Origin: an uncultured virus (IMG/VR IMGVR_UViG_3300035701_006463)
Taxonomy: Duplodnaviria > Heunggongvirae > Uroviricota > Caudoviricetes
Virus record (IMG/VR): IMGVR_UViG_3300035701_006463
DNA: 64,000 bases
Strand: one strand, 5' to 3'
A program made the translations under genes and the position numbers. Positions 683 to 54,965 of this stretch are shown piece by piece (the stretch's first letter is position 1; each line of letters begins with the position of its first letter). Below the pieces are notes generated by a model, which ran no database searches, had not been told where the DNA came from, and saw only the letters and a list, made by a program, of their open reading frames with translations.

Positions 683-752
683 GAGGAAAGACGATGGAGG
701 AGACTGTAATACGAATTAAAACTATCACCTCTTTTTCTCCTCCCCGTCCCTC
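683..752 (+). ncRNA. BHB-bounded dual-9-nt-spacer hairpin, copy 1
   Basis: GAGG-AAA-GACGATG-GAGGAGA-[CTG TAATACGAA TTAAAA CTA TCACCTCTT TT]-TCTCCTC-C-CCGTC-CCTC, then AAT bulge and 6-bp outer helix (677-682/756-761). Confidence 0.85.
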
Positions 753-806
753 AATTTTATACTCCCTCTCTATAGTAGGTGGAGTGGCAATGGTATTGTT
801 GTTTAG

Positions 807-1202
807 GTGTTGAATTTGGGAAAAAGAAGAGGTTTGACGGCGTCTCAGTATGCGGAGGTGAGAAACAACAAACACGAGCATACAGCGCAAGTATACTTGG
901 ATCCAAAGGTGATAGATGAGGAATATTTGAATCGGTTTTTAGGTAAGGTTTTCTTTTGGTCATTCGGGTTCAATAAAACTGGACCATACACACATTCAAC
1001 AAAATTCAGGGTGTGTACCCACAGGTTCATTCCACAACATAAGTTATCTTCATTAGTTGAAGGAGCATTCCAAAATGGATGTGAGGTCAAGCCTGTGCAG
1101 GGATATAGCTTTCGTCATACATTTGATGTTAAAACAACAACTCCTCTCAGGTGGGATGAGTTTGTATGGAGAATTGTTAAGGCACTAGAAGGGGTGTTGT
1201 AG
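807..1202 (+). CDS. Hypothetical protein
   Basis: 131-aa ORF in operon direction. Confidence 0.6.
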   Translation: MLNLGKRRGLTASQYAEVRNNKHEHTAQVYLDPKVIDEEYLNRFLGKVFFWSFGFNKTGPYTHSTKFRVCTHRFIPQHKLSSLVEGAFQNGCEVKPVQGYSFRHTFDVKTTTPLRWDEFVWRIVKALEGVL

Positions 1203-1336
1203 AATGGGGGGGTTGTTGGATTGGGACACACTGAGGGGAATACTGGTGATGGTTGTGATACTCCTCATATTCTCTGGGCGCGGGTTTCAGATCGTTTCGG
1301 GGTTGTTGAAGAAGGCAGTCAAACGCTATGGAGGAT

Positions 1337-1350
1337 AAAAGTTTATATAT
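1337..1350 (+). promoter_or_regulatory. Archaeal BRE-TATA promoter
   Basis: AAAAGTTTATATAT about 30 nt upstream of ATG 1382. Confidence 0.55.
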
Positions 1351-1381
1351 CCCAAATAATCATAATTATAATGAGAAGTTT

Positions 1382-2530: not shown

Positions 2531-2910
2531 TCCCAAGACCCAGTGAGGGGGTATTTCAGAGGCTAGTTGAGTATAAGGTGGTCACAGTGAGAAGTAATAA
2601 GTATGTATACTCCCCTGAATTTGAGTCGTCTGTGAGTTATCTCCGGGAACATCCTCCCGGGAAACTCGAGCAAACGCGTATGGGGAGCAAGGTTCGTTCT
2701 GGTGTTATTCCCGCTCTGGTGAAATACGTGGCTCACATTAACAAGAAAAAAGAATATGTAGAGAACGTGATAGTTGCATATGTCTGCTTGGATGCCCACT
2801 TCAAGAGGCTTGGTATGAGCTTTCCAAGTGATCAGTTAGCTGATATTGTTTACGGGACGTTTTATCTCAACGACAATGAGCCGGAGGTAGAGCCCGTGGT
2901 AGGTGAGTAA
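2527..2910 (+). CDS. Hypothetical protein
   Basis: 127-aa coupled ORF. Confidence 0.6.
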   Translation: MIPRPSEGVFQRLVEYKVVTVRSNKYVYSPEFESSVSYLREHPPGKLEQTRMGSKVRSGVIPALVKYVAHINKKKEYVENVIVAYVCLDAHFKRLGMSFPSDQLADIVYGTFYLNDNEPEVEPVVGE

Positions 2911-3574
2911 AATGGATACTGAAGAAGTTTTGGGAGTGGTGTTACATTACTTCTGTTTAATAGCGCCCATGGTGGGTATGGTCTACTCACTGTGTCATGT
3001 GGCTGTGAACGGTATATATGGTTACATCTACTTGCCCGGAATTAGTGCAGCTATCATTCATTCGTGGTCCCTGTTTTGTATACTTGGATTCTTCGGGGTT
3101 ACATATTACATGTTGAGCTACTTAATGCCATTACTGAGGATGATTGTAGCTTTATCCCTTACTATTTTTTCTATTCAAGTATACGACTTCTTGTGGTCGG
3201 CATTCAGCCAAGCCGTCCGAGGTGTTGGATTCTCGTGGGGGGCGTTGGTAGCTAGTTTTATGTTACTGGTCTTATTAGAGCGTATGGACAACAAGCACAA
3301 TTTTATCAGTGTACCTAGACTTTTTACCACAAAACATCTATTCTCGTTGATAGGGATAGCTATCCTGCTTTTATCATTCAAGGGACTGGTGGACACGGGC
3401 TTCTTCCAGGCCATGACCTTGTACGAGCAGGGATTGGGACCAGATCCAAACATAGGTAGCTTCCTATGGGTAGCTAGGAGGCCGGCAGTGTTCTGTGCCC
3501 TCATTCCGTGGTTGAAAATTAAGAAGGGGTTTGTAGCACCGTTACGATTGGATCCGAGGGTGTTGGTTTGGTGA
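2903..3574 (+). CDS. Polytopic membrane protein, paralog family A
   Basis: Motif DTGFFQAMTLYEQGLGPDP shared with 5836..6483. Confidence 0.7.
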   Translation: MSKMDTEEVLGVVLHYFCLIAPMVGMVYSLCHVAVNGIYGYIYLPGISAAIIHSWSLFCILGFFGVTYYMLSYLMPLLRMIVALSLTIFSIQVYDFLWSAFSQAVRGVGFSWGALVASFMLLVLLERMDNKHNFISVPRLFTTKHLFSLIGIAILLLSFKGLVDTGFFQAMTLYEQGLGPDPNIGSFLWVARRPAVFCALIPWLKIKKGFVAPLRLDPRVLVW

Positions 3575-4357: not shown

Positions 4358-5108
4358 CTTAACTGGTAGGGCCGATGCAGAGACAATTAAAAAGAGGTAC
4401 CAACGTGAGGTTGATAATGCATACGAAAACGTTACGAACAAGGTCCGTTGGCTCTACGGTATGAATCATAAGTTAAAAAGTGCTATGTCTGATATTGAGC
4501 GGTTAGAAAGGGACATTAAAGCGGGGCAGGACGAAAGAAAAGAACTCTATGAGTCACTTCAAACTTTACTTATGAAAGAAACTAATTTTGAGAAAGAAAT
4601 GTGGAGCACAACCCAACGGGGTAGTAGAGTTACTACCATTAATGTTAAACAAAGATTCACTGATAGTGATGTGGATGAAATCCGATATGATTCAATGCTG
4701 AATTATCTACAAAGATACCCAGAGTATGCATCTAAGTCAAGTTTTAGTAAGATACTGGATAAAATAGTTTCAATAGAGGCAGGTATTAAAAACACAAAAC
4801 AGAATTTTCATGGTGCCATTGCTAGGGCAAAAACGGAAATTTCTTATTTCCCAAGGAATATAATGGAGGCAAAAAATACAATCAAAACTTACAACAGGAT
4901 TTTAAAAGAAGGTGTGGAAAAATTAGAAAGTATGCGTTATAAAAGGAGCATTTTCTTCAGGCTGTCCAGTGAGTCGAATAAATTGAAAGTTATGCTTGAT
5001 GTACTTCCACACAAGGTTAATGAAAATGAGGATACAATTAATAGAATAGAAGAGGAAGTAAAACTTGCTGAGAGTAGGTTTAGTTATAATGAAGGGTCTA
5101 AAATATGA
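4344..5108 (+). CDS. LemA-like coiled-coil protein
   Basis: RYPEYASKSSFSKILDKIVSIEAGIKNTKQNF...ISYFPRNI resembles the LemA C-terminal motif. Confidence 0.6.
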   Translation: MGMFDLTGRADAETIKKRYQREVDNAYENVTNKVRWLYGMNHKLKSAMSDIERLERDIKAGQDERKELYESLQTLLMKETNFEKEMWSTTQRGSRVTTINVKQRFTDSDVDEIRYDSMLNYLQRYPEYASKSSFSKILDKIVSIEAGIKNTKQNFHGAIARAKTEISYFPRNIMEAKNTIKTYNRILKEGVEKLESMRYKRSIFFRLSSESNKLKVMLDVLPHKVNENEDTINRIEEEVKLAESRFSYNEGSKI

Positions 5109-5335
5109 GCATGAACGGGGATGTACAGAAAATGCCTATTGAGATGGCACAGATACAAAAAAGGCTTGAAGAATTACAGGAAATGCAAAGAAATGAATTA
5201 GCAAAAAGAAATAAAGTATGTCCTCAATGTGGTGGAACGGGAACAATGGTTATTGTGACACGTTCGATCCTGTTTCCTACAAAGATTAAGATTGTGATTT
5301 GTGATAGGTGCAAGGGATGGCGAATGATCGAGTGA
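5105..5335 (+). CDS. DnaJ-type Zn-finger protein
   Basis: CPQCGGTG...CDRCKG. Confidence 0.65.
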   Translation: MSMNGDVQKMPIEMAQIQKRLEELQEMQRNELAKRNKVCPQCGGTGTMVIVTRSILFPTKIKIVICDRCKGWRMIE

Positions 5336-5366
5336 ATGCCAGCATGTGGATGTGAAGGAATAAGTA

Positions 5367-5807: not shown

Positions 5808-5845
5808 TTGGAAAGGTGGTCGAGGAGGCTAACATTTGCATAAAG
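5808..5845 (+). ncRNA. Truncated 5' half of the dual-spacer hairpin
   Basis: TTGG-AAA-GGTGG-TC-GAGGAGG-CTA-ACATTTGCA-TAAAG; 3' arm absent. Confidence 0.7.
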
Positions 5846-6483
5846 AGCGTTTGATTGGGTATATTGGAGATATATACATAAGTGCCGTGTTAGCCCTACT
5901 GGCCATTAGTGTAGTATCGTTTGTGCTTTTTCCATTCGGTGATTTGATTTTCAATGTGGGTGGAATTTGGTTGAGTAGTGTGACAGTTATAACATTTACA
6001 TTATCTATTGCTGTGTTGTACTACATTTATAAGGAAATGGATGTATTTCCTAGGATAATGTGTTCCTTGGTACTACCTATATTCGGTATATCATTTCACG
6101 AGGCGTGGTGGCACGTCGGAAGTTGGTATACTTGGGGTATGGGTTTTCCTATATTCTGGATCTCGTATTCGGTGGCACTTTTTTTGGTAGCAATTATACT
6201 TCACATGAGATGTGGCTCTCTAAAATTCACCATGCCTAGGTTGGTATTCATATTGGTTTGTTTGTTGGGGTACAGGGTGGGATGGCAGTATCTTATGGAC
6301 ACGGGCATGTTCCCGGCACTATTATTGTACGAGCAGGGACGAGGGCCGAACCCACAAGGACTTGTCCTCTATCTGAATGCTAGCTTAGGTAGAATGGTGT
6401 GGTTGCTACTGGCTAACTGCCAGAAAGGAGAGTGGTCAATCTTCAAAATGTTAGGTATTCTGAAGGGGGTGGTGGTGAAATGA
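5836..6483 (+). CDS. Polytopic membrane protein, paralog family A
   Basis: DTGMFPALLLYEQGRGPNP motif; start codon uncertain. Confidence 0.7.
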   Translation: MHKERLIGYIGDIYISAVLALLAISVVSFVLFPFGDLIFNVGGIWLSSVTVITFTLSIAVLYYIYKEMDVFPRIMCSLVLPIFGISFHEAWWHVGSWYTWGMGFPIFWISYSVALFLVAIILHMRCGSLKFTMPRLVFILVCLLGYRVGWQYLMDTGMFPALLLYEQGRGPNPQGLVLYLNASLGRMVWLLLANCQKGEWSIFKMLGILKGVVVK

Positions 6484-7109
6484 GCTTTGTTACAGCTGTT
6501 AAGAAGTTTTACATTGACTCCGATTACTACGATTATGATGATGTTGCTACTCATTTCGTCGGGCCCGAAACGTTTTTCCATAGGAGTAGAAGGAATGCAG
6601 TGTTGAGCGTAATTAAAAAGTTCTCCACTGGGTCACCGTACATGGACGCTGGTTGTGGTACGGGACTGATCCTTCGGTACTTGCCGGCAAATTCAATTGG
6701 CGTGGACATCAGCCCTCTTCATCTCAAACGGACGAGGGAGAAGCTGCCTGAGACTATGTTGATAATGGCTGATATTGAGAACCTGCCAATTAGGAAGGGA
6801 TCGTGTTCCACGGTAGTTTGTACTGAAACGTTGGAGCACCTGCCGTCGCCTAGAAGGGCAGTGGAGCAGATTAGATATGTGTTACGAAAAGCTGGCGTTT
6901 TCATAGGGTCTATTCCACATCGGTTCTTTCTCTGGTATTTCAAGTTTCTTAGTTTTACATGCGATCATACTGTGCCGTTTCATAGGGAGTATAGTGTTAG
7001 AGAGGTTAGAAATTTGTTGAGAGAGTTTGACATCATGATGATTAAGCCATGTGCGCTAATGTTAACTGTGGTATTCGCCGCACGGTTTAATGGAGGTAGA
7101 GTATGTTAA
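6480..7109 (+). CDS. Class I SAM-dependent methyltransferase
   Basis: MDAGCGTG, VCTETLEHLP; ATGA-coupled start. Confidence 0.9.
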   Translation: MSFVTAVKKFYIDSDYYDYDDVATHFVGPETFFHRSRRNAVLSVIKKFSTGSPYMDAGCGTGLILRYLPANSIGVDISPLHLKRTREKLPETMLIMADIENLPIRKGSCSTVVCTETLEHLPSPRRAVEQIRYVLRKAGVFIGSIPHRFFLWYFKFLSFTCDHTVPFHREYSVREVRNLLREFDIMMIKPCALMLTVVFAARFNGGRVC

Positions 7110-7121: not shown

Positions 7122-7191
7122 CTGGAAAGGTGTTTGATGGGACTAAAGTCCACGTTAAAACTAGAAATCCATTTTCCTTTCAGCACCCCAG
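7122..7191 (+). ncRNA. BHB/BHL-bounded dual-9-nt-spacer hairpin, copy 2
   Basis: CTGG-AAA-GGTGT-T-TGATGGGA-[CTA AAGTCCACG TTAAAA CTA GAAATCCAT TT]-TCCTTTCA-GCACC-CCAG, then AAA. Confidence 0.85.
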
Positions 7192-7209: not shown

Positions 7210-8313
7210 ATGAGGATAGGTATAGCAGCCCCGAATTTGGGTGAAAAAGAGCTGGAATATGTAACTGATGCTGTAAAATCCACCTGGATTTCGTCCAAGG
7301 GGAAATATGTGAAAGGCTTCGAGGACAAATTTGCTGAATACATAGGTACAAAATACGCCTACACGGTCTGTAATGGTACGGCTGCCCTCCACTTGGCTAT
7401 GCTAGCTTGTGGTGTTGGTCCGGGTGATGAGGTTATCATGCCGGCAACAACCATGATAGCCTGTGCAAATGTTGTAAAGTACTGTGGTGGAAAGCCAGTC
7501 TTCGTAGACATCGAGGAGGACACGTGGTGTATAGACCCAGCCGATATTGTTAATAAGATAACCAAGAACACTGTGGCTATAATGCCTGTACACCTTTATG
7601 GGCACCCGGCCGATATGAGCCCTATACTGGGGATAGCCGAAGAGTATAGACTCCATGTGATCGAAGATGCCGCTGAAGCTCATGGTGCAGAGTATCGGGG
7701 TAAGAAAGTGGGTGGGATTGGTGATGTAGGATGTTTCAGCTTCTATGGAAATAAAATTCTCGCAACGGGCGAGGGAGGAATGGTCACCACTGACGACGAT
7801 GATCTAGCCAAGAAACTTGATAGTCTGAGAAACCAAGCCTACGACCCTGATAAAAGAGACAAACTCATACACAGTGGCATAGGATACAACTATCGTCTCA
7901 CGAATGTACAATGTGCCCTCGGATTGGCACAGTTGGAGAGGATCGATGAGTTCATAAAAATACACCGGGACAACGCTGACAGATACAACAGGGGCTTGGG
8001 AAAGGGATTGATTCTTCCACCAGAAAAGAGTTGGGCTAAGAACGTTTATTGGATGTACACTACTGTGCTGGATGTTGAATCGCCTGTTGTGAGAGATATG
8101 TTAATGGAGAAGCTCAAATCTGTTGGTGTGGAGACCAGAGCTGTGTTTCCTGCTATTTATCATCAACCACCATACAAGGACTCCTCTTCATGGTGTACAG
8201 TGGCTGATTGGTTCGGAGACAGGGGGCTGAATCTTCCGTCTGGTAACAGTACTACATTTGAAGAGGTGGACTATGTGATTGAGAAGATTAAAGAGTTCCT
8301 TGAGGTGGAGTGA
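7210..8313 (+). CDS. DegT/DnrJ/EryC1/StrS sugar aminotransferase
   Basis: NGTAALHLA, IEDAAEAHGA, FSFYGNKILATGEGGM, GYNYRL. Confidence 0.95.
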   Translation: MRIGIAAPNLGEKELEYVTDAVKSTWISSKGKYVKGFEDKFAEYIGTKYAYTVCNGTAALHLAMLACGVGPGDEVIMPATTMIACANVVKYCGGKPVFVDIEEDTWCIDPADIVNKITKNTVAIMPVHLYGHPADMSPILGIAEEYRLHVIEDAAEAHGAEYRGKKVGGIGDVGCFSFYGNKILATGEGGMVTTDDDDLAKKLDSLRNQAYDPDKRDKLIHSGIGYNYRLTNVQCALGLAQLERIDEFIKIHRDNADRYNRGLGKGLILPPEKSWAKNVYWMYTTVLDVESPVVRDMLMEKLKSVGVETRAVFPAIYHQPPYKDSSSWCTVADWFGDRGLNLPSGNSTTFEEVDYVIEKIKEFLEVE

Positions 8314-9312: not shown

Positions 9313-9924
9313 TTGGTAGATGTGTTCGGTAGTGTCTGGGTATTACACCACGAGATACATCTACTCTCCTTGCTGTTTTCTATCATAGTTTTTGCCTACT
9401 TTTTTGTTACCACGAAGGAGTCCCTTATTATTCGAGTCTTATCAGCCGCTTTATTTATGTTTGCGGGTAACTTGTTATGCGAAGTGCCATGGATACTTGG
9501 TTACTACCTCCATGTGGGTGGGCTCGTTTTAGCCCTCGATGTGATTGAGTTCATGCTCGGCGAAATTTTCATACTTTATATTTTTGATAACTTGAGGAGG
9601 AAGGGGTTAAAACTTCCTCGGGTAGATATGAAGAAATGGTTGGTCGTTTTCACGATTGCTTGGGTATCCGTGGCTCTATTGGATAGGCACGGTTTTTACC
9701 CACTTTGGATCGGTTATCTGAATGGGACAGTGTTGGTTGACCCTCACACCGTGTATCCGTTTAATTTGGACTGGTCCATTGGTAAAGCTATCGGCATGTT
9801 GGGTTGGGTATGGATTGCTAGAAGTGAGAAGACTGGAAAGACGGCCGAGGAGGCTGATGTTGGGGTGAAACCTACAAAGCCAATCCCTCCTCCCCGTCCC
9901 AGAATTCAAGGTGAAGAGCTATGA
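9313..9924 (+). CDS. Polytopic membrane protein, distant family A; 3' end contains hairpin copy 3
   Basis: DRHGFYPLWIGYLNG...DPH aligns loosely with the family A motif. Confidence 0.65.
   Translation: MVDVFGSVWVLHHEIHLLSLLFSIIVFAYFFVTTKESLIIRVLSAALFMFAGNLLCEVPWILGYYLHVGGLVLALDVIEFMLGEIFILYIFDNLRRKGLKLPRVDMKKWLVVFTIAWVSVALLDRHGFYPLWIGYLNGTVLVDPHTVYPFNLDWSIGKAIGMLGWVWIARSEKTGKTAEEADVGVKPTKPIPPPRPRIQGEEL
9833..9902 (+). ncRNA. BHB-bounded dual-9-nt-spacer hairpin, copy 3
   Basis: CTGG-AAA-GACGG-CC-GAGGAGG-[CTG ATGTTGGGG TGAAAC CTA CAAAGCCAA TC]-CCTCCTC-C-CCGTC-CCAG, then AAT bulge. Confidence 0.88.
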
Positions 9925-10682
9925 GCGAACAGTTCGGTAGGGTCTATGCAAAGTGTTACGATGTATTGTACGGTGACAAAAACTACAATGACGAGTGTGA
10001 TTTAATCGAAAAGATACTTTCCCAGTATGGTCGGGGTACGGACACCACCATACTGGACATTGGATGTGGTACGGGTGGTCACATGATTCCTCTACTCAAG
10101 GCAGGGTACGATGTGGTTGGTGTTGATCCATCACGCTATATGATAGACGAGGCGGTTAAAAAGGATGCTAGCCTTGTTTCCAGAATTAATGTGGGGAGAC
10201 TTCAAGACTTCAAGTTACGTGGTAGGTTCGAGGCAATAATATGCATGTTCTCTGTGATAAACTACGTGACCGAAACAGATGAGCTAATAAAATCACTCAT
10301 GAACGTTAGGCATCATTTAGCGCGCGGTGGATTGTTCATATTCGATTTCTGGTACGGTCCGGCTGTGATGACCATAAAGCCGGACGCTAGGATTAAAAGT
10401 GTTGAGCACAACGGACTTGTTATTGAGAGGATTGTAGTCCCGGAGTGGGACATCTTTAGCCACATTATTCGGTCTCACTATTATTTACGTGTGATTAAGG
10501 GAGACCATATTGAGGAGGAGGTCAGTGAAACACACACTCTCCGTTACTTTTTCCCACAAGAAGTAATTTGGTGTTTGGGGCAAACTGGGTTCGAGTTAGT
10601 AAAATTCTCGTCCTTCACGGACTTAGATCACCCACCATCCGTTAACGAGTGGGACGCATTGGTGGTAGCGAGGGCGGTTTAA
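9921..10682 (+). CDS. Class I SAM-dependent methyltransferase (sugar MTase-like)
   Basis: YDVLYGDKNY, ILDIGCGTGGH, GGLFIFDFWYG. Confidence 0.9.
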   Translation: MSEQFGRVYAKCYDVLYGDKNYNDECDLIEKILSQYGRGTDTTILDIGCGTGGHMIPLLKAGYDVVGVDPSRYMIDEAVKKDASLVSRINVGRLQDFKLRGRFEAIICMFSVINYVTETDELIKSLMNVRHHLARGGLFIFDFWYGPAVMTIKPDARIKSVEHNGLVIERIVVPEWDIFSHIIRSHYYLRVIKGDHIEEEVSETHTLRYFFPQEVIWCLGQTGFELVKFSSFTDLDHPPSVNEWDALVVARAV

Positions 10683-17117: not shown

Positions 17118-17287
17118 GTGACAGTTTGACTTTGGTGTTGTTTTGTGTTATTGTTGGTATTGTGGTTATTTTTGAGTACTTGCGTAGAGAGTACTGGTCA
17201 CCCCGGAAAGGTAGTGAGGAGGCTGTGCAACCATTGAAAGCTGATGGACTCTTTCCTCCTTACTATCCCGGAAGGGAGGCTTGGTAA
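17114..17287 (+). CDS. Short TM ORF containing hairpin copy 4; possible exon 1 of the next gene
   Basis: GTG at 17114 overlaps upstream stop; MSDSLTLVLFCVIVGIVVIFEY. Confidence 0.55.
   Translation: MSDSLTLVLFCVIVGIVVIFEYLRREYWSPRKGSEEAVQPLKADGLFPPYYPGREAW
17203..17271 (+). ncRNA. BHB-bounded dual-9-nt-spacer hairpin, copy 4
   Basis: CCGG-AAA-GGTAGT-GAGGAGG-[CTG TGCAACCAT TGAAAG CTG ATGGACTCT TT]-CCTCCTT-ACTATC-CCGG, then AAG bulge and CC/GG outer pairs. Confidence 0.88.
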
Positions 17288-38261: not shown

Positions 38262-38813
38262 ACGATCAACAACCTTTCGCTCACCTGTTCCCTGTGCCCC
38301 GATCTCTCCGCCCACCGCCACTCCATAGTCCATGGCGTCGGCCCAATCCCCTCACCCCTCCTCCTGATCGGCGAAGCACCCGGCCGCTCCGAGGACGCTC
38401 TCGCCACCCCCTTCGTCGGCCCAGCAGGCCGCATCCTCTCCTCCCTCCTCGCCTCCTCTGGCCTCCCCCGTTCGTCCATCTACATCACAAACCTCGTCAA
38501 GTGCCGCCCCACCACCCCCGCCGGCACCAACCGCACCCCCACCCCAGCCGAAATCTCGTCATGCTCCCCGCGTCTCCTCTCCGAAATCACCATGGTCGCA
38601 CCAAAACTCATCGCCCCACTCGGTGCAACAGCACTCTCCTTCTTCTCACCCCTACCCCTCTCCGCCGTCCACGGCACAATATTAGAATGGAACAGCCACA
38701 TACTCATCCCGCTGTACCACCCAGCCGTCGCCCTCTACGATCCGAGCACGCTCCCCACCCTCACCCGCGACATATCATTCGTCAAACTCACCCTCGACTC
38801 CCTCAACCACTGA
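38262..38813 (+). CDS. udg: Uracil-DNA glycosylase, family 4 (Fe-S), probable ACG start
   Basis: CSLC, IGEAPGRSED...PFVGPAG, ITNLVKCRP, NRTP, YHPA in one frame with no ATG/GTG/TTG before 38592. Confidence 0.88.
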   Translation, partial: TINNLSLTCSLCPDLSAHRHSIVHGVGPIPSPLLLIGEAPGRSEDALATPFVGPAGRILSSLLASSGLPRSSIYITNLVKCRPTTPAGTNRTPTPAEISSCSPRLLSEITMVAPKLIAPLGATALSFFSPLPLSAVHGTILEWNSHILIPLYHPAVALYDPSTLPTLTRDISFVKLTLDSLNH

Positions 38814-38866
38814 ATGAATGAATGAAGAATTCTCCTCTCCCTTCAACCCCCATATAAATTCAGTCT

Positions 38867-47839: not shown

Positions 47840-48733
47840 CTATTCCTTTGCTTTTATCTCATCATCAGTTTTTTCTGGTGCAGGAAGTTCGGGTATTGAC
47901 GGGGCTTCTGGTAAGGCTGCAATTCGTTTTGTCATTTCTATTAACTCAGCATTTTTGGCTATTATTGCCTTCTTTATGTCACCTTTAATTTCTACTTGTG
48001 TATCCAGCAATCTCCTACCTGTGGTAACGGTCCTCTTCAAATCTGCTAGATGCCATTTGCCTGAAAGTTCTGTATATAGTTGATAGTCTGCCGGAGCCCA
48101 TGTAGGATCGAAACCTACCTTTAATGGGTATATTACAGGTAGTTTGTTTTCTTCCATTATCATAACTACCCACTGAAAGATTAGGTATTTGTGTGAGAAG
48201 TGTGGGTCTTTTAGTATCTCTACCCACCTCCTAATTTCTTTTATACTTTTTTCTGCCCCAGCGATCTCTGCAATACTAACTAATGTTTCTTGTGATTCTT
48301 TAATCTCTGATACTTTCCAAGAATCTAACAGCTTAATGTATTCTGGTAGTTTATCCACCATTTCCCATAGTGATCGGTACGCCTCTATGTCTTTTAATAT
48401 CGTCTTCCATATAGAACGGAGTCTTTTCCTGTTCTTTTTAATAATACAGTCCACTAAGTCCTTTTTCTGTTTCGCATAGCCCTCAGCCGAGGTGATAAAG
48501 TCCTTGTCATAACCATAAACTTTATTCATAAGGTTCTCTAAACAATTTGGGATTGTAATTATTTCGGACTGAGTTGACTCATCATAATCCACCTTTGAAA
48601 TTTCTTGTATTGCTTTGGAAACCTTTTCTTGTTCTGGTTTTTCTTTTACAGTCACTCTATCTTCACTTTCTGGATTCGTTAGTAAGTCTCGAATCCAGTT
48701 TGAGAGGTCTTCAAGCCCCACAAATTTCACCAT
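47840..48733 (-). CDS. Hypothetical helical protein coupled to the ParB gene
   Basis: 297 aa. Confidence 0.65.
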   Translation of the reverse strand: MVKFVGLEDLSNWIRDLLTNPESEDRVTVKEKPEQEKVSKAIQEISKVDYDESTQSEIITIPNCLENLMNKVYGYDKDFITSAEGYAKQKKDLVDCIIKKNRKRLRSIWKTILKDIEAYRSLWEMVDKLPEYIKLLDSWKVSEIKESQETLVSIAEIAGAEKSIKEIRRWVEILKDPHFSHKYLIFQWVVMIMEENKLPVIYPLKVGFDPTWAPADYQLYTELSGKWHLADLKRTVTTGRRLLDTQVEIKGDIKKAIIAKNAELIEMTKRIAALPEAPSIPELPAPEKTDDEIKAKE

Positions 48734-51033
48734 TACTTGATCACCTCATATTCTGCTTCTACTAGCTTAGCCTTCTCCATATCTAATTTGATATCTGGTA
48801 GAGCTGGTACACTCGGTTGTTTCTCATCTGGAATGTTCGGATTCAATTGCTCTAAGTAGGTACAGATTATTCGTATGCCTCGTATGTATCCCAGATAATC
48901 ATTCCACCTCTCTTTACCTAGGACGCGCATTGTTTCTATTCCCCACTTTAGTACATTATAGAATGTCCTTTCAATGTTATTAGCGTAAACCTCATCCAGT
49001 CCGAGCGGTTCCTCCCTTCCCGTTGGAGTTCGTGGTCCAACCTCTTCACCGTTTAGTACTCTCTGTATCACTTTTTCTGCTCGTTGTCCATCCACTGTAT
49101 AATCTCTAAGATATTCTAATATTTCGAGTTGCTTTTCTATACCGCTGACCTTAGCTAGCCGTATAATTGTTTTATATCCTATTTCGTAATTTTCATCCAA
49201 GATTGTATTTCTCACAATGCTATCCATCCTTGACAATACAAGAACTAGTGATTTAACCGATTTTGGTGACCAGTGCTGCTGTTGAGCCTTACCCTTTAGC
49301 AGTAGGCGCTCGTTTTCTACTAGTCCCTCTGTAGCATTGTGGAGTAGGATTGCTTCTGTTTCTTCTGGATTGTTTATTGCATTCTCTCCACCCGCGACTC
49401 TACCCTCGTCAAAAGTAGCCTTTAAAACATCTTCCCCAGCCCGTTTTAGGGCGATTTCTCTTTGTATTTCATCAGTAAATTCCTTTAAGACTTCTGGCCT
49501 TCCTATATCTTTAGTCTTGGTCAGTTGTTCTAGTTTACTTCTAAATTCTTTAAGTTTGACTCCGTCTATACTTTCTTTCTCAGCTTTAATAATCTCCTTC
49601 TCAGCTTCCAATGTATTTTTAGGTGCAACGATAGCAGCTTCTATGTCCGCGAGAAATTGTTTCACATTTTCTTTTATTGTTTTATTTTCTATCAACTCAA
49701 CGAGTCGTTGTCTATAGTCTGATGTATCTAACCCGAGATCTGATGCCTCTCGAATCTTCTTTTCAATGTTTTCCTTAGCTGTTTTGTTACCTCTAATCTT
49801 GTTGATGGTGTCTATGTATTTTTTACATTCACTAATTACCTGTTTAGGGTCTTCAAATAAAAGTGGTTTGAGTCTTTCCACAGCTAACTCCCATTCACGT
49901 ATGAGATTATCACCTATTTTATCCTCTTTAGCTAGGCGAATTTTACCTTCTAAACTATTTCCCTTACCGAACGCATCGAGAAGTGCTTTTTCTGTTTCTG
50001 TTGGTTGTTTTGCCTTTCCCTCTGCTCCTTTATCTGTTTCTCTTTTATCTATGTCCGGTTTGCTTCGTTTTTCCTTCCTATCCTCTATTTCTTTTCTTTC
50101 TTCTTCTGCCTTGGCTGCTCTCTCTTCTTCTCTTTGACGAGCCTTTTTTAGTTCTTCCGCTCTTATTTCATCTGCTTTCTTTATCTCTTCGTCTTCTATT
50201 GTCTTTTGGTATTCTTGAACTCTGTCTCTAAACTTCCCAACAGAATCGAGTCCTTTCTCTGGATCAGATATCTCATCAATGAGATTCTTCATTGTTTCGG
50301 GATGTTGGTATAATCTGGCTGCATATAGTCCATATGAAACTTCTAATCCCCTACGGTCTTTGGGTTCAACAAAATTCAATGTGTCTATAGCATACAACCT
50401 TATTTTTTGTAATAAATCCTCGGGCAGGAATATCATCCTACAATGTTCCCTTACATTTGTGTGACTATGGGGCCTACCCGTTCTCTCACTGAGCTGTCTA
50501 GCTAGTTTGGAGTAGCCGGATGGAGTTGTCCCTCCCACACCACCTGTAGGAGCATCTAAAAGATCTTTTAGATGGTCATACTCCCCGTCCCGTATCTCTT
50601 TGAGTTGTGTGGGGATATATGATTTCTTTTCTTTTCCAGTGACTTCCAAATTTATATCAATTACTCGCCTAGCCCAGTTATACGCCCTATCCACATAGTT
50701 ATGCTCTCGTTTTTGCCCTTCCAAGACATCACGAAGCTCGTCACGCTGATCAAGAGTTTCAATATCTAGGTGATGTCTAATATCAAGTGGATAGCCTATT
50801 TCTTGGATAGCTAACCAACGTCTTTCACCATCCACTATGATGTAGTTAGCGTCAACATGTATAGGCTCTTGTTGCCCAACCTCTTTTATATTTCGAGCTA
50901 GCTCGTTTATATCATCTTTGTTTATCCTCGGTTGACGAGGATCAGGTATGATTCGTAAATGTACATCTTCAGCTCGGACTGTTTCGGATATTATCCTCAT
51001 TCTTTCCTCCTTCCTACTATTCACATCACTCAT
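48733..51033 (-). CDS. ParB/Srx N-terminal domain protein with long coiled coil
   Basis: PRQPR, ELARNIKEVGQQEPI, IVDGERRWLA. Confidence 0.85.
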   Translation of the reverse strand: MSDVNSRKEERMRIISETVRAEDVHLRIIPDPRQPRINKDDINELARNIKEVGQQEPIHVDANYIIVDGERRWLAIQEIGYPLDIRHHLDIETLDQRDELRDVLEGQKREHNYVDRAYNWARRVIDINLEVTGKEKKSYIPTQLKEIRDGEYDHLKDLLDAPTGGVGGTTPSGYSKLARQLSERTGRPHSHTNVREHCRMIFLPEDLLQKIRLYAIDTLNFVEPKDRRGLEVSYGLYAARLYQHPETMKNLIDEISDPEKGLDSVGKFRDRVQEYQKTIEDEEIKKADEIRAEELKKARQREEERAAKAEEERKEIEDRKEKRSKPDIDKRETDKGAEGKAKQPTETEKALLDAFGKGNSLEGKIRLAKEDKIGDNLIREWELAVERLKPLLFEDPKQVISECKKYIDTINKIRGNKTAKENIEKKIREASDLGLDTSDYRQRLVELIENKTIKENVKQFLADIEAAIVAPKNTLEAEKEIIKAEKESIDGVKLKEFRSKLEQLTKTKDIGRPEVLKEFTDEIQREIALKRAGEDVLKATFDEGRVAGGENAINNPEETEAILLHNATEGLVENERLLLKGKAQQQHWSPKSVKSLVLVLSRMDSIVRNTILDENYEIGYKTIIRLAKVSGIEKQLEILEYLRDYTVDGQRAEKVIQRVLNGEEVGPRTPTGREEPLGLDEVYANNIERTFYNVLKWGIETMRVLGKERWNDYLGYIRGIRIICTYLEQLNPNIPDEKQPSVPALPDIKLDMEKAKLVEAEYEVIK

Positions 51034-51218: not shown

Positions 51219-51284
51219 AACTTATCAATCCTATATAGATATATGTCAATATATAAATATTTGGAACAGATTGTTTGAAGGCAC

Positions 51285-52428
51285 TCATTTTTCCACCAGC
51301 GGTTTAAATTTATTAAAATCAACACAATCACATAGACCATCACATATCTTTTTTATATATTCGTCCGCAAATCGTGCTCTTTGAACATTCTTTGTCTTCA
51401 TAAACGTTTCTTTAGCTATTTCCTCCAATGAATGGTACCATATATCTTTTTTATCTCCAACATATGAGGGTAAGAAACTTGTGTATCCTCTCGTTAATGC
51501 AAAAAGATTTCGACACGGAAAAACGTACCTGAGGGCTGGATCCAAGTCTAACAAGAACTGCATACTGGGCTCCAGTTTTCCTGACATCGCTTTTTCAAAC
51601 ATTTCTCTTCCCATATATTTTTTCATATTTTCCTCCATTACTTTACCTCTGTTCTTGGTGTCACAATAAAGTAATAATCTCCATTTAGTCCACTCCGTTA
51701 TGTACAACAAATCAATGTCTCGCCCATCGGACAATACAAGACTTCCATCTTTTCTCCTTTCAACACAAAGAATTGGTTGCTCCAGTTATACTCCCTCCTT
51801 ACTATCACCACTGCCCGCAGTTAACAATGATGGATTGAATAATTTTCCGCAGAGTGAACACATCACATCACTATCTATCCGAATTTTTTCTGCAAGTTGT
51901 TTACAGAATGGGCACTCCATGTAGAGCTCGTTGACTTGTTCAGGTGTCAATACACTATCCTCTTCCTCGTTTGGTAGAAACGCACTAGCTACAGCAATCA
52001 TATACTCTGTCTCCTCCAGCCACGTCGGTATTCTCACTTCTTTTCTAGTGGGCATAAGGACCATACATCCCCGACGTTTCATTTATTGTGGTCACTCTCA
52101 ACCACTTCCAAAACAATAACCAGTCACCTGTGCACGTAATTAACTCATACAGCTTCGACTTAACAAAAGTGTTACACTCTTCCTGTGTGTTACATTCTCT
52201 CTTACCGTACTGGTACATTATCCAAGCCGTGAATCTGTTGTACCTATGTAGTGCCTCTAAGGCATTAAGTCCGACATTACCCGTACCGACAATTTCTCTG
52301 GCTCTTTCAAAAAGAGAGCAGTACTGAGCTGCTAGCTCTTTGTTATTCTCACCCACGACCTTGTCGGCTAGGAATCCCTCACCTAATGGATTATCCCTAA
52401 TTTTTATTTCTTCTATTATTTGTGTCAT
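51285..52428 (-). CDS. Three hypothetical proteins (51285..51734, 51786..~52055 Zn-ribbon, 52045..52428)
   Basis: Co-oriented ORFs; CPFC...CSLC in the middle one. Confidence 0.55.
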
Positions 52429-54606
52429 TTAAATACCCATCCTGTATCTGTCCAACAATTCTTGCCTCTTCCCCTCATTCCAGCTACTCACATCGGTGTA
52501 GTAGCCCGTTATTCTACTCCAGTTTTGGACATCTTTGCTCCCGCACGTTGGACAATTATCTAACAACCCACCCGTCGTTGATTGACAATCTCTACACACT
52601 GTCAGGTCCTTCGTGTACGTGAAATACCCTATCTGACTGCCCTGCGCTATCCTCTTCGTCAACTTGTACATCCCCTCCGGGTCCGGATGAGCCTCTCCCA
52701 GCCACGCGTGGAATATATTCCCACCACTCAGTATTGGAAAGAACTTTTGTTCTATGTCCATCTTCGATCCGAACGGAATCTTCGCACCTACATACGTGTG
52801 TGTCCCGTTTGAGTAGTACACAGGTAGGTCTCTCTCACCATCTAGGTCCTTGAGCTTTGTTAAGTCTCCTTTTATAACTTTTTCGGCTTTATCCCTATAC
52901 TCTGGTGACACAAGGTCCTGTATGGCAAACGTCTGAGCCGTGCTCTCCGCTGGCGTCCTAGCTAACGACAACCTCATCCCATTCTGCATCTGCAACCCTT
53001 TCCTGAACTTTTCCATATCCAGCAATAACGTCAACGCTAACCTAACCGAATCTGGGTCTTCATGTAGTTGCTTCCCGGTTACGTGCTGAACCATTTCGTT
53101 TATACCCACAACTCCTATCACATTCACCAACTCACTGAAATCAACGGCTGGAGGTGCTCTCTCCCCCGTCTCCGGATCTCTCGGTTGTTGTGAGGCGAAC
53201 GGTAACAGGTTATTGTTTATTGCAGAATTCATCCACCTACGTTTTATCTTGAACACCTCCACGGCTGTTCTCATATTCTCCTTAGCGAGCTGTAACAACA
53301 TATCATAATCCCCATTGGACCTATACGCCAGTCTCGGCATGTTTATACTCACCACCTGCCAACCGCCCATGCTGAAGTGTTGCCCATCCACAAAGTACAG
53401 TTTTTCCTCAAAATTCGGGTCCGTCTCCGGATTGTTGGTGAACTGATACGCACAGCACTGGTAGCAGCTAATCCCCTTCCCATAGCCCCTATACCCCGGC
53501 AACATATTATCAAAGTACGGTGATCCAAACTTCGCTACTGCTTCGTGGACTAACAACCACAGGTCGTCATACTCCGATTTGAAGAACTCCGGACTCACGT
53601 AGTTCTCCTGTTTCGGGAAATTGAATGGCTTTCCCCACCCGTCGCCCTCCAGTGAGACCTCACAAATAGCGCGGAAGAACTGCTGAACCTCATCTTCATA
53701 ACTTCCGTACGTATCCGGCCCAGTCTTACCATGCATAACTATCGGCACGTTCTTCCATATGTCCGGAACGCCCATCGGTATCTGTAAGTTACTGAATGTT
53801 GGTTGTCCTCCCCTAGCGACGTATGTTTGTGTCAACTCGTAGAACATCATCTGTGCTATTTGTTTTATCTCCTCGTATTTCATCCCCCTTAGGTATGGAG
53901 CCATGAAGACAGTGTAGTTCATATACCCTTGTCCCCCTGCGAAATTCAGCTGAGCAGCGGCTAGTGCTTTTACACTATGTAGTAGAGCCACAGTAGCATG
54001 TTTTGCTGGTTTGGCAACACTACTATGGAACCCAACCCCATCCGCGACAAACCCATACTTGAAGAAGTACCTCAGGTCCCAGTCCTGACAAAACGGTCTG
54101 GTCCCAAAGTACTCTAGCGTATGTATATGTATGTCTCCCTTATGGTGTGCCTCTGCAATTCCTGGAGGCATTAACAGCAGGTACTCTTCCTTGCTCAACT
54201 GGTCGGCCTTCTTCTTATGTGATGTCTCTGGATTGTGTTGTAAATTGGCGTTCTCTTTCGCTTCAAACCCCTTTCCTGTGTCTATCTGGTAAGCGTCATA
54301 AACTGGGGCACCCACTCGAGTTAGGACGTTCCTGTAGATGGCGTATTCCGGTCTCTCGACGGACAACTCCAGTAGGGTGTTGTTGACCATTTCTCTTATC
54401 ATTGGACCACTAACGAATTGTGGGTTAATTTTCCCCAACTGGTTTTCGACCATTGTTGCTATCCTAGCGGCCTGTCTTTTACCTATCGGAGGGATACCAA
54501 ACATTTCTTCTGCTAACTGGGTTTCTTTAGTGAGTTGGTTTACAATTTTATTTTTGTCCCATGGGATAAGGTATCCGTTCGATGACCTAACTCTCGGTAA
54601 ACTCAT
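52429..54606 (-). CDS. nrdD: Anaerobic (class III) ribonucleoside-triphosphate reductase with ATP cone
   Basis: GDIHIH, YQCCAY, TPAEST, CPTCGS, SRITGYY glycyl-radical motif. Confidence 0.96.
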   Translation of the reverse strand: MSLPRVRSSNGYLIPWDKNKIVNQLTKETQLAEEMFGIPPIGKRQAARIATMVENQLGKINPQFVSGPMIREMVNNTLLELSVERPEYAIYRNVLTRVGAPVYDAYQIDTGKGFEAKENANLQHNPETSHKKKADQLSKEEYLLLMPPGIAEAHHKGDIHIHTLEYFGTRPFCQDWDLRYFFKYGFVADGVGFHSSVAKPAKHATVALLHSVKALAAAQLNFAGGQGYMNYTVFMAPYLRGMKYEEIKQIAQMMFYELTQTYVARGGQPTFSNLQIPMGVPDIWKNVPIVMHGKTGPDTYGSYEDEVQQFFRAICEVSLEGDGWGKPFNFPKQENYVSPEFFKSEYDDLWLLVHEAVAKFGSPYFDNMLPGYRGYGKGISCYQCCAYQFTNNPETDPNFEEKLYFVDGQHFSMGGWQVVSINMPRLAYRSNGDYDMLLQLAKENMRTAVEVFKIKRRWMNSAINNNLLPFASQQPRDPETGERAPPAVDFSELVNVIGVVGINEMVQHVTGKQLHEDPDSVRLALTLLLDMEKFRKGLQMQNGMRLSLARTPAESTAQTFAIQDLVSPEYRDKAEKVIKGDLTKLKDLDGERDLPVYYSNGTHTYVGAKIPFGSKMDIEQKFFPILSGGNIFHAWLGEAHPDPEGMYKLTKRIAQGSQIGYFTYTKDLTVCRDCQSTTGGLLDNCPTCGSKDVQNWSRITGYYTDVSSWNEGKRQELLDRYRMGI

Positions 54607-54875
54607 GCTTTCACCTCCTGTTGGCCGTTGTGTAGGAACATCGAGACTTTGCTCTCCGACAACACGTCCTTATCGAACATTCTGTCCGGAGTTAGTGTTT
54701 TCCCGTTCGCCTCCAATATGGGAGGGTCACTGAAAATGTTCATCATTATTAGCTCAACCTGTGTTTCTATATCAATTTTCTTCTCTTCATAAATTATGTT
54801 ACTTTTTTCCAAGTAGTCCTTCAGTTTGTGACAGTTTTTGCATCCTGCCATTGTATATAATATTACTCTACTCAT
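54603..54875 (-). CDS. Glutaredoxin/NrdH-like protein
   Basis: LYTMAGCKNC, PPIL. Confidence 0.85.
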   Translation of the reverse strand: MSRVILYTMAGCKNCHKLKDYLEKSNIIYEEKKIDIETQVELIMMNIFSDPPILEANGKTLTPDRMFDKDVLSESKVSMFLHNGQQEVKA

Positions 54876-54895
54876 TTTTTCAAGCTCCTAGGACT

Positions 54896-54965
54896 CTGGG
54901 GCGGAGAGGAGGAACCAGTTTATCAGTTTTTAGACCTTTTACAGCCTCCTCGGCCGCCTTTCCAG
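54896..54965 (-). ncRNA. BHB/BHL-bounded dual-9-nt-spacer hairpin, copy 5
   Basis: Minus strand CTGG-AAA-GGCGG-CC-GAGGAGG-[CTG TAAAAGGTC TAAAAA CTG ATAAACTGG TT]-CCTCCTC-T-CCGCC-CCAG. Confidence 0.88.

What the first reader, a model, noticed from the sequence alone, without database searches (positions are those of the whole stretch)
683..54965. Dispersed family of TIGR-like dual-9-nt-spacer guide hairpins
Seen: five 69-70 nt elements (683+, 7122+, 9833+, 17203+, 54896-) plus a half copy (5808+). All five full copies have an exactly 32-nt loop CTR-N9-TNAAAN-CTR-N9-TY, and all ten 9-mers differ: TAATACGAA/TCACCTCTT, AAGTCCACG/GAAATCCAT, ATGTTGGGG/CAAAGCCAA, TGCAACCAT/ATGGACTCT, TAAAAGGTC/ATAAACTGG. 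The closing stems covary: CTGG:CCAG, GAGG:CCTC, CCGG:CCGG; GACGG:CCGTC, GGCGG:CCGCC, GGTGT:GCACC; GAGGAGG:CCTCCTC, GAGGAGA:TCTCCTC. Known: TIGR-Tas guides have two ~9-nt spacers at 18-nt periodicity between short box-like motifs and are bound by Nop-domain proteins, but are described as tandem arrays. Inference: a programmable RNA-guided system whose guides are scattered singly through operons instead of arrayed.
Basis: partly seen in the sequence, partly recalled or inferred. Interest (0 to 1): 0.97.

Follow-up and report, generated by a model that had tools for sequence, protein, structure and literature searches.

The report
Scattered dual-guide hairpins in archaeal virus
A large archaeal-type virus carries single 70-base RNA hairpins between its genes, each holding two unique 9-base stretches laid out as in the guide RNAs of TIGR-Tas systems, but no partner protein was found.

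Summary
The window holds five full 69-70 nt elements and one half copy. I found four more in relatives: three full copies and one 3' arm cut by a contig end. All share a 16-bp bulged stem and a loop that reads CTR-N9-TN-AAAN-CTR-N9-TY. On nine copies, 97.9% of stem cells pair and 11 of 16 pairs show changes on both sides (0 of 500 shuffles). At two orthologous loci in a relative that is 86-88% identical, the 9-mers match at only 11 of 36 positions. The rest of the element matches at 87 of 104 (p = 9e-9). Copies are also gained and lost between relatives. The loop geometry (3+9+2, gap 4, 3+9+2) equals that of published tigRNAs, and stem-loop tigRNAs are already known. Three points count against membership. 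The copies are scattered singly over at least 54 kb, not arrayed. Pfam, NCBIfam, PHROGs and Tas-family profiles found no Nop/Tas protein in the 64 kb, which is about half of a 125-kb contig. No target and no RNA data were found. Best reading: tigRNA-like guides cut from operon transcripts (0.45). Rivals: a cis-acting hairpin, or a mobile palindrome.

The parts
683..752 (+). Full element e683. Helix 1 is GAGG:CCTC. Box CTG 704-706, 9-mer A 707-715 (TAATACGAA), linker 716-724, 9-mer B 725-733 (TCACCTCTT). It lies between ORF 227-652 and ORF 807-1202.
   Evidence: (81.9 bits)
5808..5845 (+). Half copy: 5' arm, box CTA and one 9-mer (ACATTTGCA, 5832-5840). Homology ends in the linker, and membrane-protein ORF 5836-6483 starts inside it.
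7122..7191 (+). Full element e7122. 9-mer A 7146-7154 (AAGTCCACG), 9-mer B 7164-7172 (GAAATCCAT). It starts 12 nt after the stop of methyltransferase ORF 6432-7109 and ends 18 nt before the ATG of aminotransferase ORF 7210-8313.
   Evidence: 76.2 bits
9833..9902 (+). Full element e9833. 9-mer A 9857-9865 (ATGTTGGGG), 9-mer B 9875-9883 (CAAAGCCAA). It lies inside the 3' end of membrane-protein ORF 9313-9924 and ends 18 nt before the ATG of methyltransferase ORF 9921-10682.
   Evidence: (82.8 bits)
17203..17271 (+). Full element e17203, 69 nt. Helix 1 is CCGG:CCGG. 9-mer A 17226-17234 (TGCAACCAT), 9-mer B 17244-17252 (ATGGACTCT). It ends 9-15 nt before the start of membrane-protein ORF 17281-18195.
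   Evidence: 70.4 bits; z -4.08
54896..54965 (-). Full element e54896 on the minus strand. 9-mer A 54933-54941 (TAAAAGGTC), 9-mer B 54915-54923 (ATAAACTGG). It lies between the PD-(D/E)XK nuclease ORF 54975-55739(-) and the glutaredoxin-like ORF 54603-54875(-), which is followed by nrdD.
   Evidence: (86.3 bits)
47840..51033 (-). Unresolved lead, not shown to belong. A ParB-like 766-aa ORF (48733-51033) is followed directly by a 297-aa all-helical ORFan (47840-48733). tasParB-tasA operons are reported in the literature.

Best explanation
The elements are genes for small guide-type RNAs built like stem-loop tigRNAs. Each is transcribed as part of the operon it sits in. It folds into a 16-bp stem made of a 4-bp helix, an AAA bulge, a 5-bp helix, a small internal loop and a 7-bp purine:pyrimidine helix. 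The stem presents a 32-nt loop with two equivalent halves. Each half is a CUR box, a 9-nt variable stretch and a U-initiated box, and a 4-nt A-rich connector joins the halves. I infer that a two-fold symmetric (dimeric) RNA-binding protein of the Nop/Tas kind grips the two box pairs, and that the two 9-mers then read a target, as in TIGR-Tas, where each spacer pairs with one DNA strand. That protein would be encoded in the unseen half of the ~125-kb contig or by the host. Shown here: the family, its structure, the fixed geometry, the turnover of the 9-mers and the gain and loss of copies. Inferred: transcription, excision from the mRNA, the protein partner, the target and the outcome (repression or cleavage).
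For: 1. Structure is under selection: 97.9% of cells paired and 11 of 16 pairs changed on both sides across 9 copies, with 0 of 500 shuffles as high; slid controls give 55-68% paired.
2. Lengths are fixed while sequence is free. The 9-mers are 30% identical on average over the 28 pairs, against 75% for the rest of the element. The loop is exactly 32 nt in 8 of 9 copies; L022b has 33.
3. The 9-mers turn over at orthologous loci. In contigs 86-88% identical to the window, they match at 5 of 18 and 6 of 18 positions. Other element positions match at 40 of 52 and 47 of 52. Pooled: 11/36 against 87/104, Fisher p = 8.8e-9.
4. The geometry equals published tigRNA geometry: box C 3 nt + spacer 9 nt + box D 2 nt, with a 4-nt gap. 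CTA is in TIGRFinder's stem-loop box C list. PateTasR uses CUU/UG boxes. The inter-spacer loop is mostly 9 nt, and it is A-rich in TasR (passages seen). PlTasA forms 9-bp heteroduplexes.
5. The same box letters stand at both halves (C and T in 9 of 9; U after each 9-mer in 9 of 9). This fits a symmetric dimer.
6. All 9 full copies lie in the sense of their flanking genes. The 5 G:U cells would be A:C on the other strand. The model scores 70-86 bits on the sense strand against 8-15 bits on the antisense.
7. The setting fits. The window looks like an archaeal tailed virus, and TIGR systems are reported mostly from phages and archaeal viruses.
8. Xu 2026 leaves open where compact viral Tas proteins without arrays get their guides.
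Against: No Tas/Nop/IS110-type protein was found in the 64 kb.
- Pfam on 104 ORFs of 50 aa or more gave no PF01798 or PF02371 hit. As a control, PF02371 does hit the TasH of Salicola phage CGphi29.
- NCBIfam and PHROGs on 54 ORFs without an informative Pfam assignment gave nothing.
- HMMs built from 40 TasH relatives, from 69 remote Tas-family representatives and from all listed representatives of 200 aa or more, run on six-frame pieces, gave best E-values of 0.065, 0.59 and 0.88.
- hhalign gave at most 3% probability over 134 pieces.

Other points against:
- The copies are single and 1.3-37 kb apart, not arrayed, and no tas gene is seen nearby.
- The guanine of box D, which pairs with the box C cytosine in solved complexes, is not conserved: G in 4 of 8 linkers and 0 of 8 at the stem side (columns 40 and 58).
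- No bipartite target with 2 or fewer mismatches lies in the window or in the three related contigs outside the elements. Near-paired 9-mer hits number 1 against 2.68 expected.
- There is no expression evidence.
- Antisense strands fold about as well.
- The turnover at orthologous loci could also come from exchange between copies within a genome. I cannot exclude this because only part of each genome is seen.
Confidence: 0.45

Rival explanations
1. A cis-acting intercistronic RNA hairpin. It would mark a processing site, stabilise the flanking mRNA halves or tune translation of the next gene. Its 3' arm CCUCCUC is an anti-Shine-Dalgarno look-alike held by GAGGAGG. The loop would be only a platform for a regulatory protein, and the 9-mers would be spacers of fixed length without meaning.
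For: All 9 copies lie in gene sense inside operons. In 4 of the 5 window copies the next start codon follows within 9-20 nt, just after a Shine-Dalgarno-like run. Helix 3 keeps purines on the 5' arm and pyrimidines on the 3' arm in all copies, changing only G:C to A:U. That points to a reading of sequence, not only of shape. No effector and no target were found.
Against: Unconstrained spacers should drift at the neutral rate. Yet the 9-mers are randomised (11 of 36 identical) at loci whose other element positions keep 87 of 104 and whose flanks keep 86-88%. The two-fold repeated box layout and the exact 9/4/9 lengths are not needed for a stabiliser hairpin. Orthologous genes do without the element in close relatives, at three polymorphic sites.
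Confidence: 0.25
2. A mobile or recombinogenic palindromic DNA element, like REP/BIME repeats, MITEs or integron attC sites. It would act as a single-stranded DNA hairpin for a transposase or recombinase encoded elsewhere.
For: Presence/absence differs between close relatives at three sites, and one half copy exists. Contigs of relatives in 4 sediment runs end or join at the 5' arm: 9318>9832, 9291>5809, 342>5815. The extra copy in L022 is followed by a second ~28-nt copy of the upstream gene's end. The two 5' arms from one metagenome (L021, L022a) are identical to each other and differ from their window orthologs, which suggests copy-to-copy exchange. Antisense strands fold as well.
Against: Copies of a mobile repeat share their interior. 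Here the interiors are unique (30% identity) while the arms are kept at 75%. No short target duplication or terminal-repeat signature is visible at the ends. Pfam found no tyrosine recombinase, Y1/RAYT transposase or IS110 enzyme among 104 ORFs. The strict gene-sense orientation of 9 of 9 copies and the G:U pairs fit RNA better.
Confidence: 0.17
3. A divergent box C/D-type small RNA that borrows the host's Nop5-fibrillarin complex, or one of the virus's many methyltransferases, to direct 2'-O-methylation of RNA through the two 9-mers.
For: The host is probably an archaeon. The layout of two guides in one hairpin, and genes scattered at the ends of ORFs, resembles archaeal C/D sRNA genes; that resemblance is recalled, not tested here. 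At least 9 SAM-methyltransferase ORFs lie in the window, two of them next to elements.
Against: The canonical C/C' and D/D' boxes and the sheared G:A pairs of a kink-turn are absent (by eye). Rfam gives no C/D family at gathering score over the whole window. Permissive scans of two elements give only sR52 at 9.1 bits against a cut-off of 50. The AAA bulge is followed by Watson-Crick G:C pairs. The methyltransferases sit in a glycan-synthesis cluster.
Confidence: 0.08

Closest known systems
Stem-loop TIGR arrays and their tigRNAs (PlTasA, PateTasR, CsTasR, BlTasA; Faure et al. 2025, PMC12045711; Xu et al. 2026 preprint 10.64898/2026.09.09.750476; Guan et al. 2026 preprint 10.64898/2026.08.11.744272)
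   Same: A hairpin whose loop carries two variable 9-nt stretches. Each stretch lies between a 3-nt box and a U-initiated box, and the same boxes stand at both halves. The inter-spacer linker is 9 nt and A-rich. The stem is variable but covaries. The carriers are viral. Units can lie inside coding sequence, as e9833 does.
   Different: The units are single and scattered over at least 54 kb of operons instead of clustered around a tas gene. No Tas protein was detected in the 64 kb. The box D guanine is not conserved. The stem is long (16 bp) with an invariant G-AAA-G bulge. The CUU motif at the stem base is seen in only 2 of 10 copies; 5 others have CUG.
Dual-repeat TIGR arrays (TaTasR, SpTasH; 36-nt tigRNA)
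   Same: The core geometry: box C 3 + spacer 9 + box D 2, with a 4-nt gap between the two intervals.
   Different: There are no edge repeats and no tandem repetition. A long stem replaces the two-base-pair edge.
Archaeal box C/D sRNAs
   Same: About 60-70 nt, two guides per molecule, two-fold pseudo-symmetry. Genes are dispersed, often at ORF ends and co-transcribed (recalled, not tested here).
   Different: There are no C/D box motifs and no kink-turn or K-loop. The guides are 9 nt rather than about 10-12. No Rfam C/D family matches (over the whole window; on two elements).
IS110 bridge RNA
   Same: A structured RNA with bipartite guide loops read by a Nop-like (PF02371) domain.
   Different: A bridge RNA is about 150-200 nt with two internal loops, and it sits next to its recombinase inside the element. 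No IS110 enzyme is present here.
REP/BIME palindromes and integron attC sites
   Same: Short imperfect palindromes between co-oriented genes, conserved in structure more than in sequence, with gain and loss between strains.
   Different: Here the loop has a fixed length and an internal two-fold motif. The interiors are unique to each copy. No RAYT transposase or integrase was found.

Membership tests
TIGR-Tas, stem-loop class | Two variable spacers of about 9 nt per unit | tested here: met
   Two 9-nt columns blocks with 30% mean pairwise identity, against 75% elsewhere in the element; 18 different 9-mers in 9 copies.
TIGR-Tas, stem-loop class | Each spacer preceded by a 3-nt box C and followed by a box D, with the same motifs at both halves | tested here: met
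   C-T-R before both 9-mers and T after both in 9 of 9 copies. CTA is one of TIGRFinder's four stem-loop box C motifs.
TIGR-Tas, stem-loop class | Box D ends in G, which pairs with the box C cytosine (TG/CG in TIGRFinder; seen in the TaTasR and PateTasR structures) | tested here: not met
   The second box D letter is G in 4 of 8 linkers and 0 of 8 at the stem side (columns 40 and 58).
TIGR-Tas, stem-loop class | Inter-spacer linker mostly 9 nt (2 + 4 + 3) | tested here: met
   TN-AAAN-CTR is 9 nt in 8 of 9 copies; L022b has 10. The published figures were seen.
TIGR-Tas, stem-loop class | Palindromic flanks forming a stem of 5 bp or more | tested here: met
   16 pairs, 97.9% of cells paired, 11 pairs with compensatory change.
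TIGR-Tas, stem-loop class | Units clustered in arrays beside or inside a tas gene | tested here: not met
   The window starts are 683, 5808 (half copy), 7122, 9833, 17203 and 54896. The model finds no further copy and no tandem array.
TIGR-Tas, stem-loop class | A Nop-domain Tas protein encoded with the guides | tested here: inconclusive
   None was found in the 64 kb by Pfam, NCBIfam, PHROGs, three Tas-family HMMs or hhalign. The window is only about half of a 125,132-bp contig. Stem-loop Tas clades may lie beyond these profiles. One helical ORFan next to a ParB-like gene could not be modelled (pLDDT 42).
TIGR-Tas, stem-loop class | Processed small RNA bound by Tas that guides it to DNA | not testable with these tools
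   No RNA run is listed as holding the sequence. The host is unknown.
Archaeal box C/D sRNA | C/C' and D/D' boxes forming a kink-turn and a K-loop | tested here: not met
   No such boxes by eye. Rfam gathering search of the window gave 0 hits. Permissive scans of two elements gave sR52 at 9.1 bits against a cut-off of 50.
IS110 bridge RNA | Adjacent DEDD/PF02371 recombinase and a two-loop RNA of about 150-200 nt | tested here: not met
   No PF02371 or PF01548 hit in 104 ORFs. The element is 70 nt with one loop.
REP/MITE/attC-type mobile palindrome | Copies share their interior sequence, and a cognate transposase or integrase is present | tested here: not met
   Interiors are unique. No such enzyme is in the window. 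The rest of the genome is unseen.

The most novel reading that the evidence does not exclude
This would be an arrayless TIGR-like system. An archaeal virus keeps its dual-spacer guides as single hairpins spread through its operons and cuts them out of its own mRNAs. It loads them on a Nop-fold effector encoded far away or by the host. That organisation links the dispersed C/D sRNA genes of archaea to TIGR arrays. It would also answer where compact viral Tas proteins without arrays get their guides. The complete replacement of both 9-mers at orthologous loci would then be the first natural view of spacer turnover in this kind of system.
Probability: 0.35. Interest if true: 0.85.

Novelty: new variant of a known kind. 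Interest (0 to 1): 0.7.

Why it matters
TIGR-Tas systems are found by looking for a tas gene and then for arrays beside it, so guides scattered across a genome would be invisible to that approach. If these hairpins are guides, three things follow. TIGR-like RNAs can live as single genes inside operons. Published Tas proteins with no detectable array may have guides elsewhere. And the family gives a natural case in which both spacers of a unit are replaced while the frame is kept, which bears on the open question of how such spacers are acquired. Even if they are not guides, this is a well-supported new structured RNA/DNA family of an uncultured archaeal virus, with an unusual pattern of variation.

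Tried and rejected
- Rfam: 0 families at gathering score over the window. Permissive scans of two elements gave only noise.
- Own genome: none is held.
- Earlier findings of this scan: nothing by place, sequence or words.
- IMG/VR: the strict pattern gave 0 hits. A relaxed pattern gave 16 hits, all matching only the typed core at 13-22 bits, so they are chance. Relatives of two window proteins were not found. The 20 loci found with the aminotransferase are distant, and none carries an element.
- Genome contigs: 3 pattern hits, none with a stem.
- Metagenome contigs: 8 of 11 pattern hits are chance.
- Targets: 9+9 sites in four arrangements with gaps of 0-3 gave nothing with 2 or fewer mismatches outside the elements. 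Pairs of near-matches within 40 nt: 1 against 2.68 expected. Complementarity to 600 nt of flanking mRNA: one perfect 9-mer (e54896 B, in nrdD), with about 0.07 expected over 32 tests. L022a has two 8-of-9 sites 32 nt apart. I do not count either.
- Public-collection scans for 18-mers were not run, because several chance hits per pattern are expected.
- Effector: PDB sequence search of 6 ORFs without an assigned function gave nothing of the Tas kind. As a control, the TasH query finds TasH entries and 9mty.
- ESM Atlas: the 297-aa ORFan gave no usable hit. The 766-aa protein looks ParB-like throughout.
- The AlphaFold2 model of the ORFan has pLDDT 42, and Foldseek gave nothing at E <= 0.001, so there is no verdict on it.
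- The second structure job and the complex job were not used.
- Bulge-helix-bulge idea: the 4-bp helix 1 plus the AAA bulge is half of such a motif. The outer helix it needs appears in the predicted folds of e683 and partly e7122, but it is not conserved. I keep it only as a thought about processing.
- No RNA holder is listed among the sequencing runs.
- Bacterial promoter and terminator scans were at chance level.
- No tRNA.

Full report
WHAT IS THERE. Reading the six places confirms five full elements at 683-752(+), 7122-7191(+), 9833-9902(+), 17203-17271(+) and 54896-54965(-), and a half copy from 5808(+). Each full copy has the same parts in the same order:
- a 4-bp helix, usually CTGG:CCAG
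- an invariant AAA bulge between two G's
- a 5-bp helix
- a small internal loop
- a 7-bp helix, usually GAGGAGG:CCTCCTC
- a 32-nt loop reading CTR-N9-TN-AAAN-CTR-N9-TY

All ten 9-mers differ. This is far from chance. The pattern with GGAAAG matches 5 times against 0.00 expected. The loop pattern alone matches 5 times against 0.16. A covariance model built from eight copies and run with filters off finds the five at 70-86 bits. The next best match scores 12.9 bits, and the reverse strands score 7.7-11.6 bits. Rfam has no family for them.

RELATIVES. One exact-pattern scan of JGI metagenome contigs gave 11 loci. Three are true elements with full stems (L021, L022, L023) and eight are chance matches inside other sequence. 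The three hits in genome contigs are chance, and IMG/VR has none. The model then found two more in these loci. One is a ninth, more divergent copy at L022:988-1068 (53.7 bits), with helices CCAG:CTGG, GACAT:ATGTC and AAAGAGG:CCTCTTT and a linker one base longer. The other is a 3' arm cut by the end of contig L021. On nine copies, 97.9% of stem cells pair and 11 of 16 pairs have changes on both sides. No shuffle out of 500 reaches this, and slid controls pair at only 55-68% (eight copies).

THE KEY RESULT: THE 9-MERS TURN OVER. L021 is the ortholog of window 54757-55726 at 88% nucleotide identity. L022 is the ortholog of window 223-1342 at 86-91%. At these two orthologous elements the 9-mers match at 6 of 18 and 5 of 18 positions, which is no better than unrelated copies (mean 30% over all 28 pairs). 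The other element positions match at 47 of 52 and 40 of 52. Pooled, this is 11/36 against 87/104, Fisher p = 8.8e-9. The stems changed by compensated steps, for example GGCGG:CCGCC to GGTGG:CCACC.

Copies also come and go between relatives:
- L022 has an element in a 111-nt insertion at window position ~1183.
- L021 has one upstream of the nuclease gene, where the window has overlapping genes.
- L023, a distant ortholog (48% protein identity) of window 2725-3574, has one where the window's genes 2527-2910 and 2903-3574 overlap.

Contigs of relatives in four sediment runs end or join at the conserved 5' arm, and they replace the intergenic stretches that hold e7122 and e17203. One caveat applies. 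Only parts of the genomes are seen, so exchange of whole loops between copies, rather than new 9-mers, cannot be excluded.

SETTING. The window looks like part of a large archaeal tailed virus or similar element.
- It encodes replication factor C large and small subunits, an anaerobic ribonucleotide reductase, a DUF3987 primase-helicase and DNA methylases.
- It also carries a long glycan-synthesis cluster with many methyltransferases and glycosyltransferases.
- The closest cultured matches are haloarchaeal tailed viruses for RFC and a Methanobacterium virus for NrdD, both at 33% identity.
- One of its ORFans is on record on a contig of 125,132 bp, so the window is about half of its contig.

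All nine full copies lie in the sense of their flanking genes. They sit in short intercistronic gaps. In four of the five window copies, the next start codon follows 9-20 nt behind the element. e9833 lies inside the 3' end of ORF 9313-9924. No archaeal or bacterial promoter or terminator signal stands out (by eye), so co-transcription with the operon is the simplest assumption.

COMPARISON WITH WHAT IS KNOWN. I read passages and named sections of three papers. I did not see figures or the supplementary PDF.
- Faure et al. 2025 (PMC12045711) describe, besides dual-repeat arrays, stem-loop arrays. [quoted passage not shown]
- Xu et al. 2026 (preprint) state that the inter-spacer loop is mostly 9 nt. 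Their finder uses 14-nt intervals (3+9+2), with a 4-bp gap in dual-repeat arrays, and a stem-loop box C set of CCA/CGA/CTA/CAA with box D TG/CG. PateTasR uses CUU/UG. Units can lie upstream of, downstream of or inside tas. One branch of compact viral TasR has no detectable array.
- Guan et al. 2026 (preprint) show 9-bp heteroduplexes for a stem-loop tigRNA.

The loop here is CTR+9+TN, then 4 nt, then CTR+9+TY, so it has the same numbers, with the same letters at both halves. It differs in three ways. The box D guanine is not conserved (4 of 8 and 0 of 8). The stem is long and carries an invariant bulge. The units are single and scattered. Neither Faure 2025 nor Xu 2026 contains the words orphan, dispersed, scattered or standalone in this sense. 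In the held library no paper pairs tigRNA with 'dispersed', and the single paper that pairs it with 'orphan', a genome-engineering review, was seen only as a search listing.

THE MISSING PARTNER. No Nop, IS110-type or Tas protein is detectable in the window.
- Pfam on 104 ORFs of 50 aa or more gave no hit to the relevant families.
- NCBIfam and PHROGs on 54 ORFs without an informative Pfam assignment gave none.
- As a positive control I fetched Salicola phage CGphi29 (accession recalled). Its TasH (L035:14395-15324) hits Pfam PF02371 and finds TasH entries and 9mty in the PDB.
- Profiles built from 40 of its 120 listed relatives, from 69 remote members and from all members of 200 aa or more among 150 representatives find nothing in six-frame pieces of 40 aa or more. 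The best E-values are 0.065, 0.59 and 0.88.
- hhalign gives at most 3% probability over 134 pieces.

One lead remains. Faure 2025 reports tasParB-tasA operons. In the window, a ParB-like 766-aa gene is followed directly by a 297-aa all-helical ORFan. That ORFan has no relative among 5.8 billion proteins. Its model is too poor to compare (pLDDT 42; Atlas model 0.38).

TARGETS. No 9+9 site in any of four arrangements with gaps of 0-3 and 2 or fewer mismatches lies in the window or the three related contigs outside the elements. Pairs of near-matches are not enriched (1 against 2.68). Complementarity to neighbouring mRNA is at chance level, apart from one perfect 9-mer in nrdD, with about 0.07 expected over the tests made. 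The host is unknown.

HOW IT MOST LIKELY WORKS. Shown: a structured, strand-biased family under selection for shape and lengths, with two freely replaceable 9-mers in a two-fold symmetric frame, gained and lost between close relatives. Inferred: the hairpins are cut out of operon transcripts and bound across the two box pairs by a dimeric Nop-type protein encoded elsewhere in the virus or by the host. The 9-mers then act as a split guide, as in TIGR-Tas. I put this at 0.45. The rivals are:
- a cis-acting intercistronic hairpin (0.25), which does not explain the randomised 9-mers
- a mobile palindromic DNA element (0.17), which explains the gain and loss but not the unique interiors
- a C/D-like methylation guide using host proteins (0.08)

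The 4-bp helix plus AAA bulge resembles half of an archaeal bulge-helix-bulge cleavage site. The outer helix it needs is not conserved, so this stays a thought about processing, not a claim.

VERDICT. The TIGR-like reading is the best available, but it fails or leaves open the array and effector criteria. I file it as a new variant of a known kind, with interest 0.7.

Noticed in passing
window 47840-51033 (-): A ParB-like 766-aa ORF is followed directly by a 297-aa all-helical ORFan with a disordered-looking N-terminus. The ORFan has no relative in 5.8 billion proteins. tasParB-tasA operons are described in Faure 2025, but the ORFan could not be modelled (pLDDT 42).
   Followed up: partly
window 38199-38870: A stretch of 54% GC (the window is mostly 40-46%) that is strongly G-rich on the minus strand. 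The only long frame is an implausible Pro/Arg/His-rich one on the plus strand. CTGATCA is repeated four times at 38199-38226. It could be non-coding, an origin of replication or foreign DNA.
   Followed up: no
window 2903-3574, 5836-6483, 9313-9924, 17281-18195, 20693-21397: Membrane-protein genes lie next to elements, and some are paralogs. 2903-3574 and 5836-6483 are 30% identical (E 3e-12). 17281-18195 and 20693-21397 are 51% identical. No significant similarity was found between 9313-9924 and 5836-6483 (E 0.16). Elements or their remnants sit just upstream of, or at the end of, several of these genes.
   Followed up: partly
L022 970-1110 against window 1150-1220: The extra element in L022 is followed by a second ~28-nt copy of the 3' end of the upstream gene. 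That copy is closer to the window's version than L022's own gene end is. It looks like a recombination scar of how the element arrived or left.
   Followed up: partly
window 54298-54306: This is the only perfect complement of any 9-mer in neighbouring mRNA: e54896 9-mer B pairs with the nrdD message about 590 nt downstream. About 0.07 such matches are expected over the 32 tests made. 9-mer A has no adjacent match.
   Followed up: yes
window 5110-5345: Relatives in three sediment runs lack the 76-aa zinc-finger ORF 5105-5335 and have 17 other letters in its place.
   Followed up: no
window 33445-36239: Three neighbouring ORFs (33445-33996, 33997-34779, 35799-36239) begin with a similar basic N-terminal motif. 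This was seen by eye in the translations. Their function is unknown.
   Followed up: no
whole window: GC skew follows the coding strand strongly, +0.2 to +0.3 where genes are on the plus strand and -0.2 to -0.47 where they are on the minus strand. In other words, the coding strands are purine-loaded.
   Followed up: no
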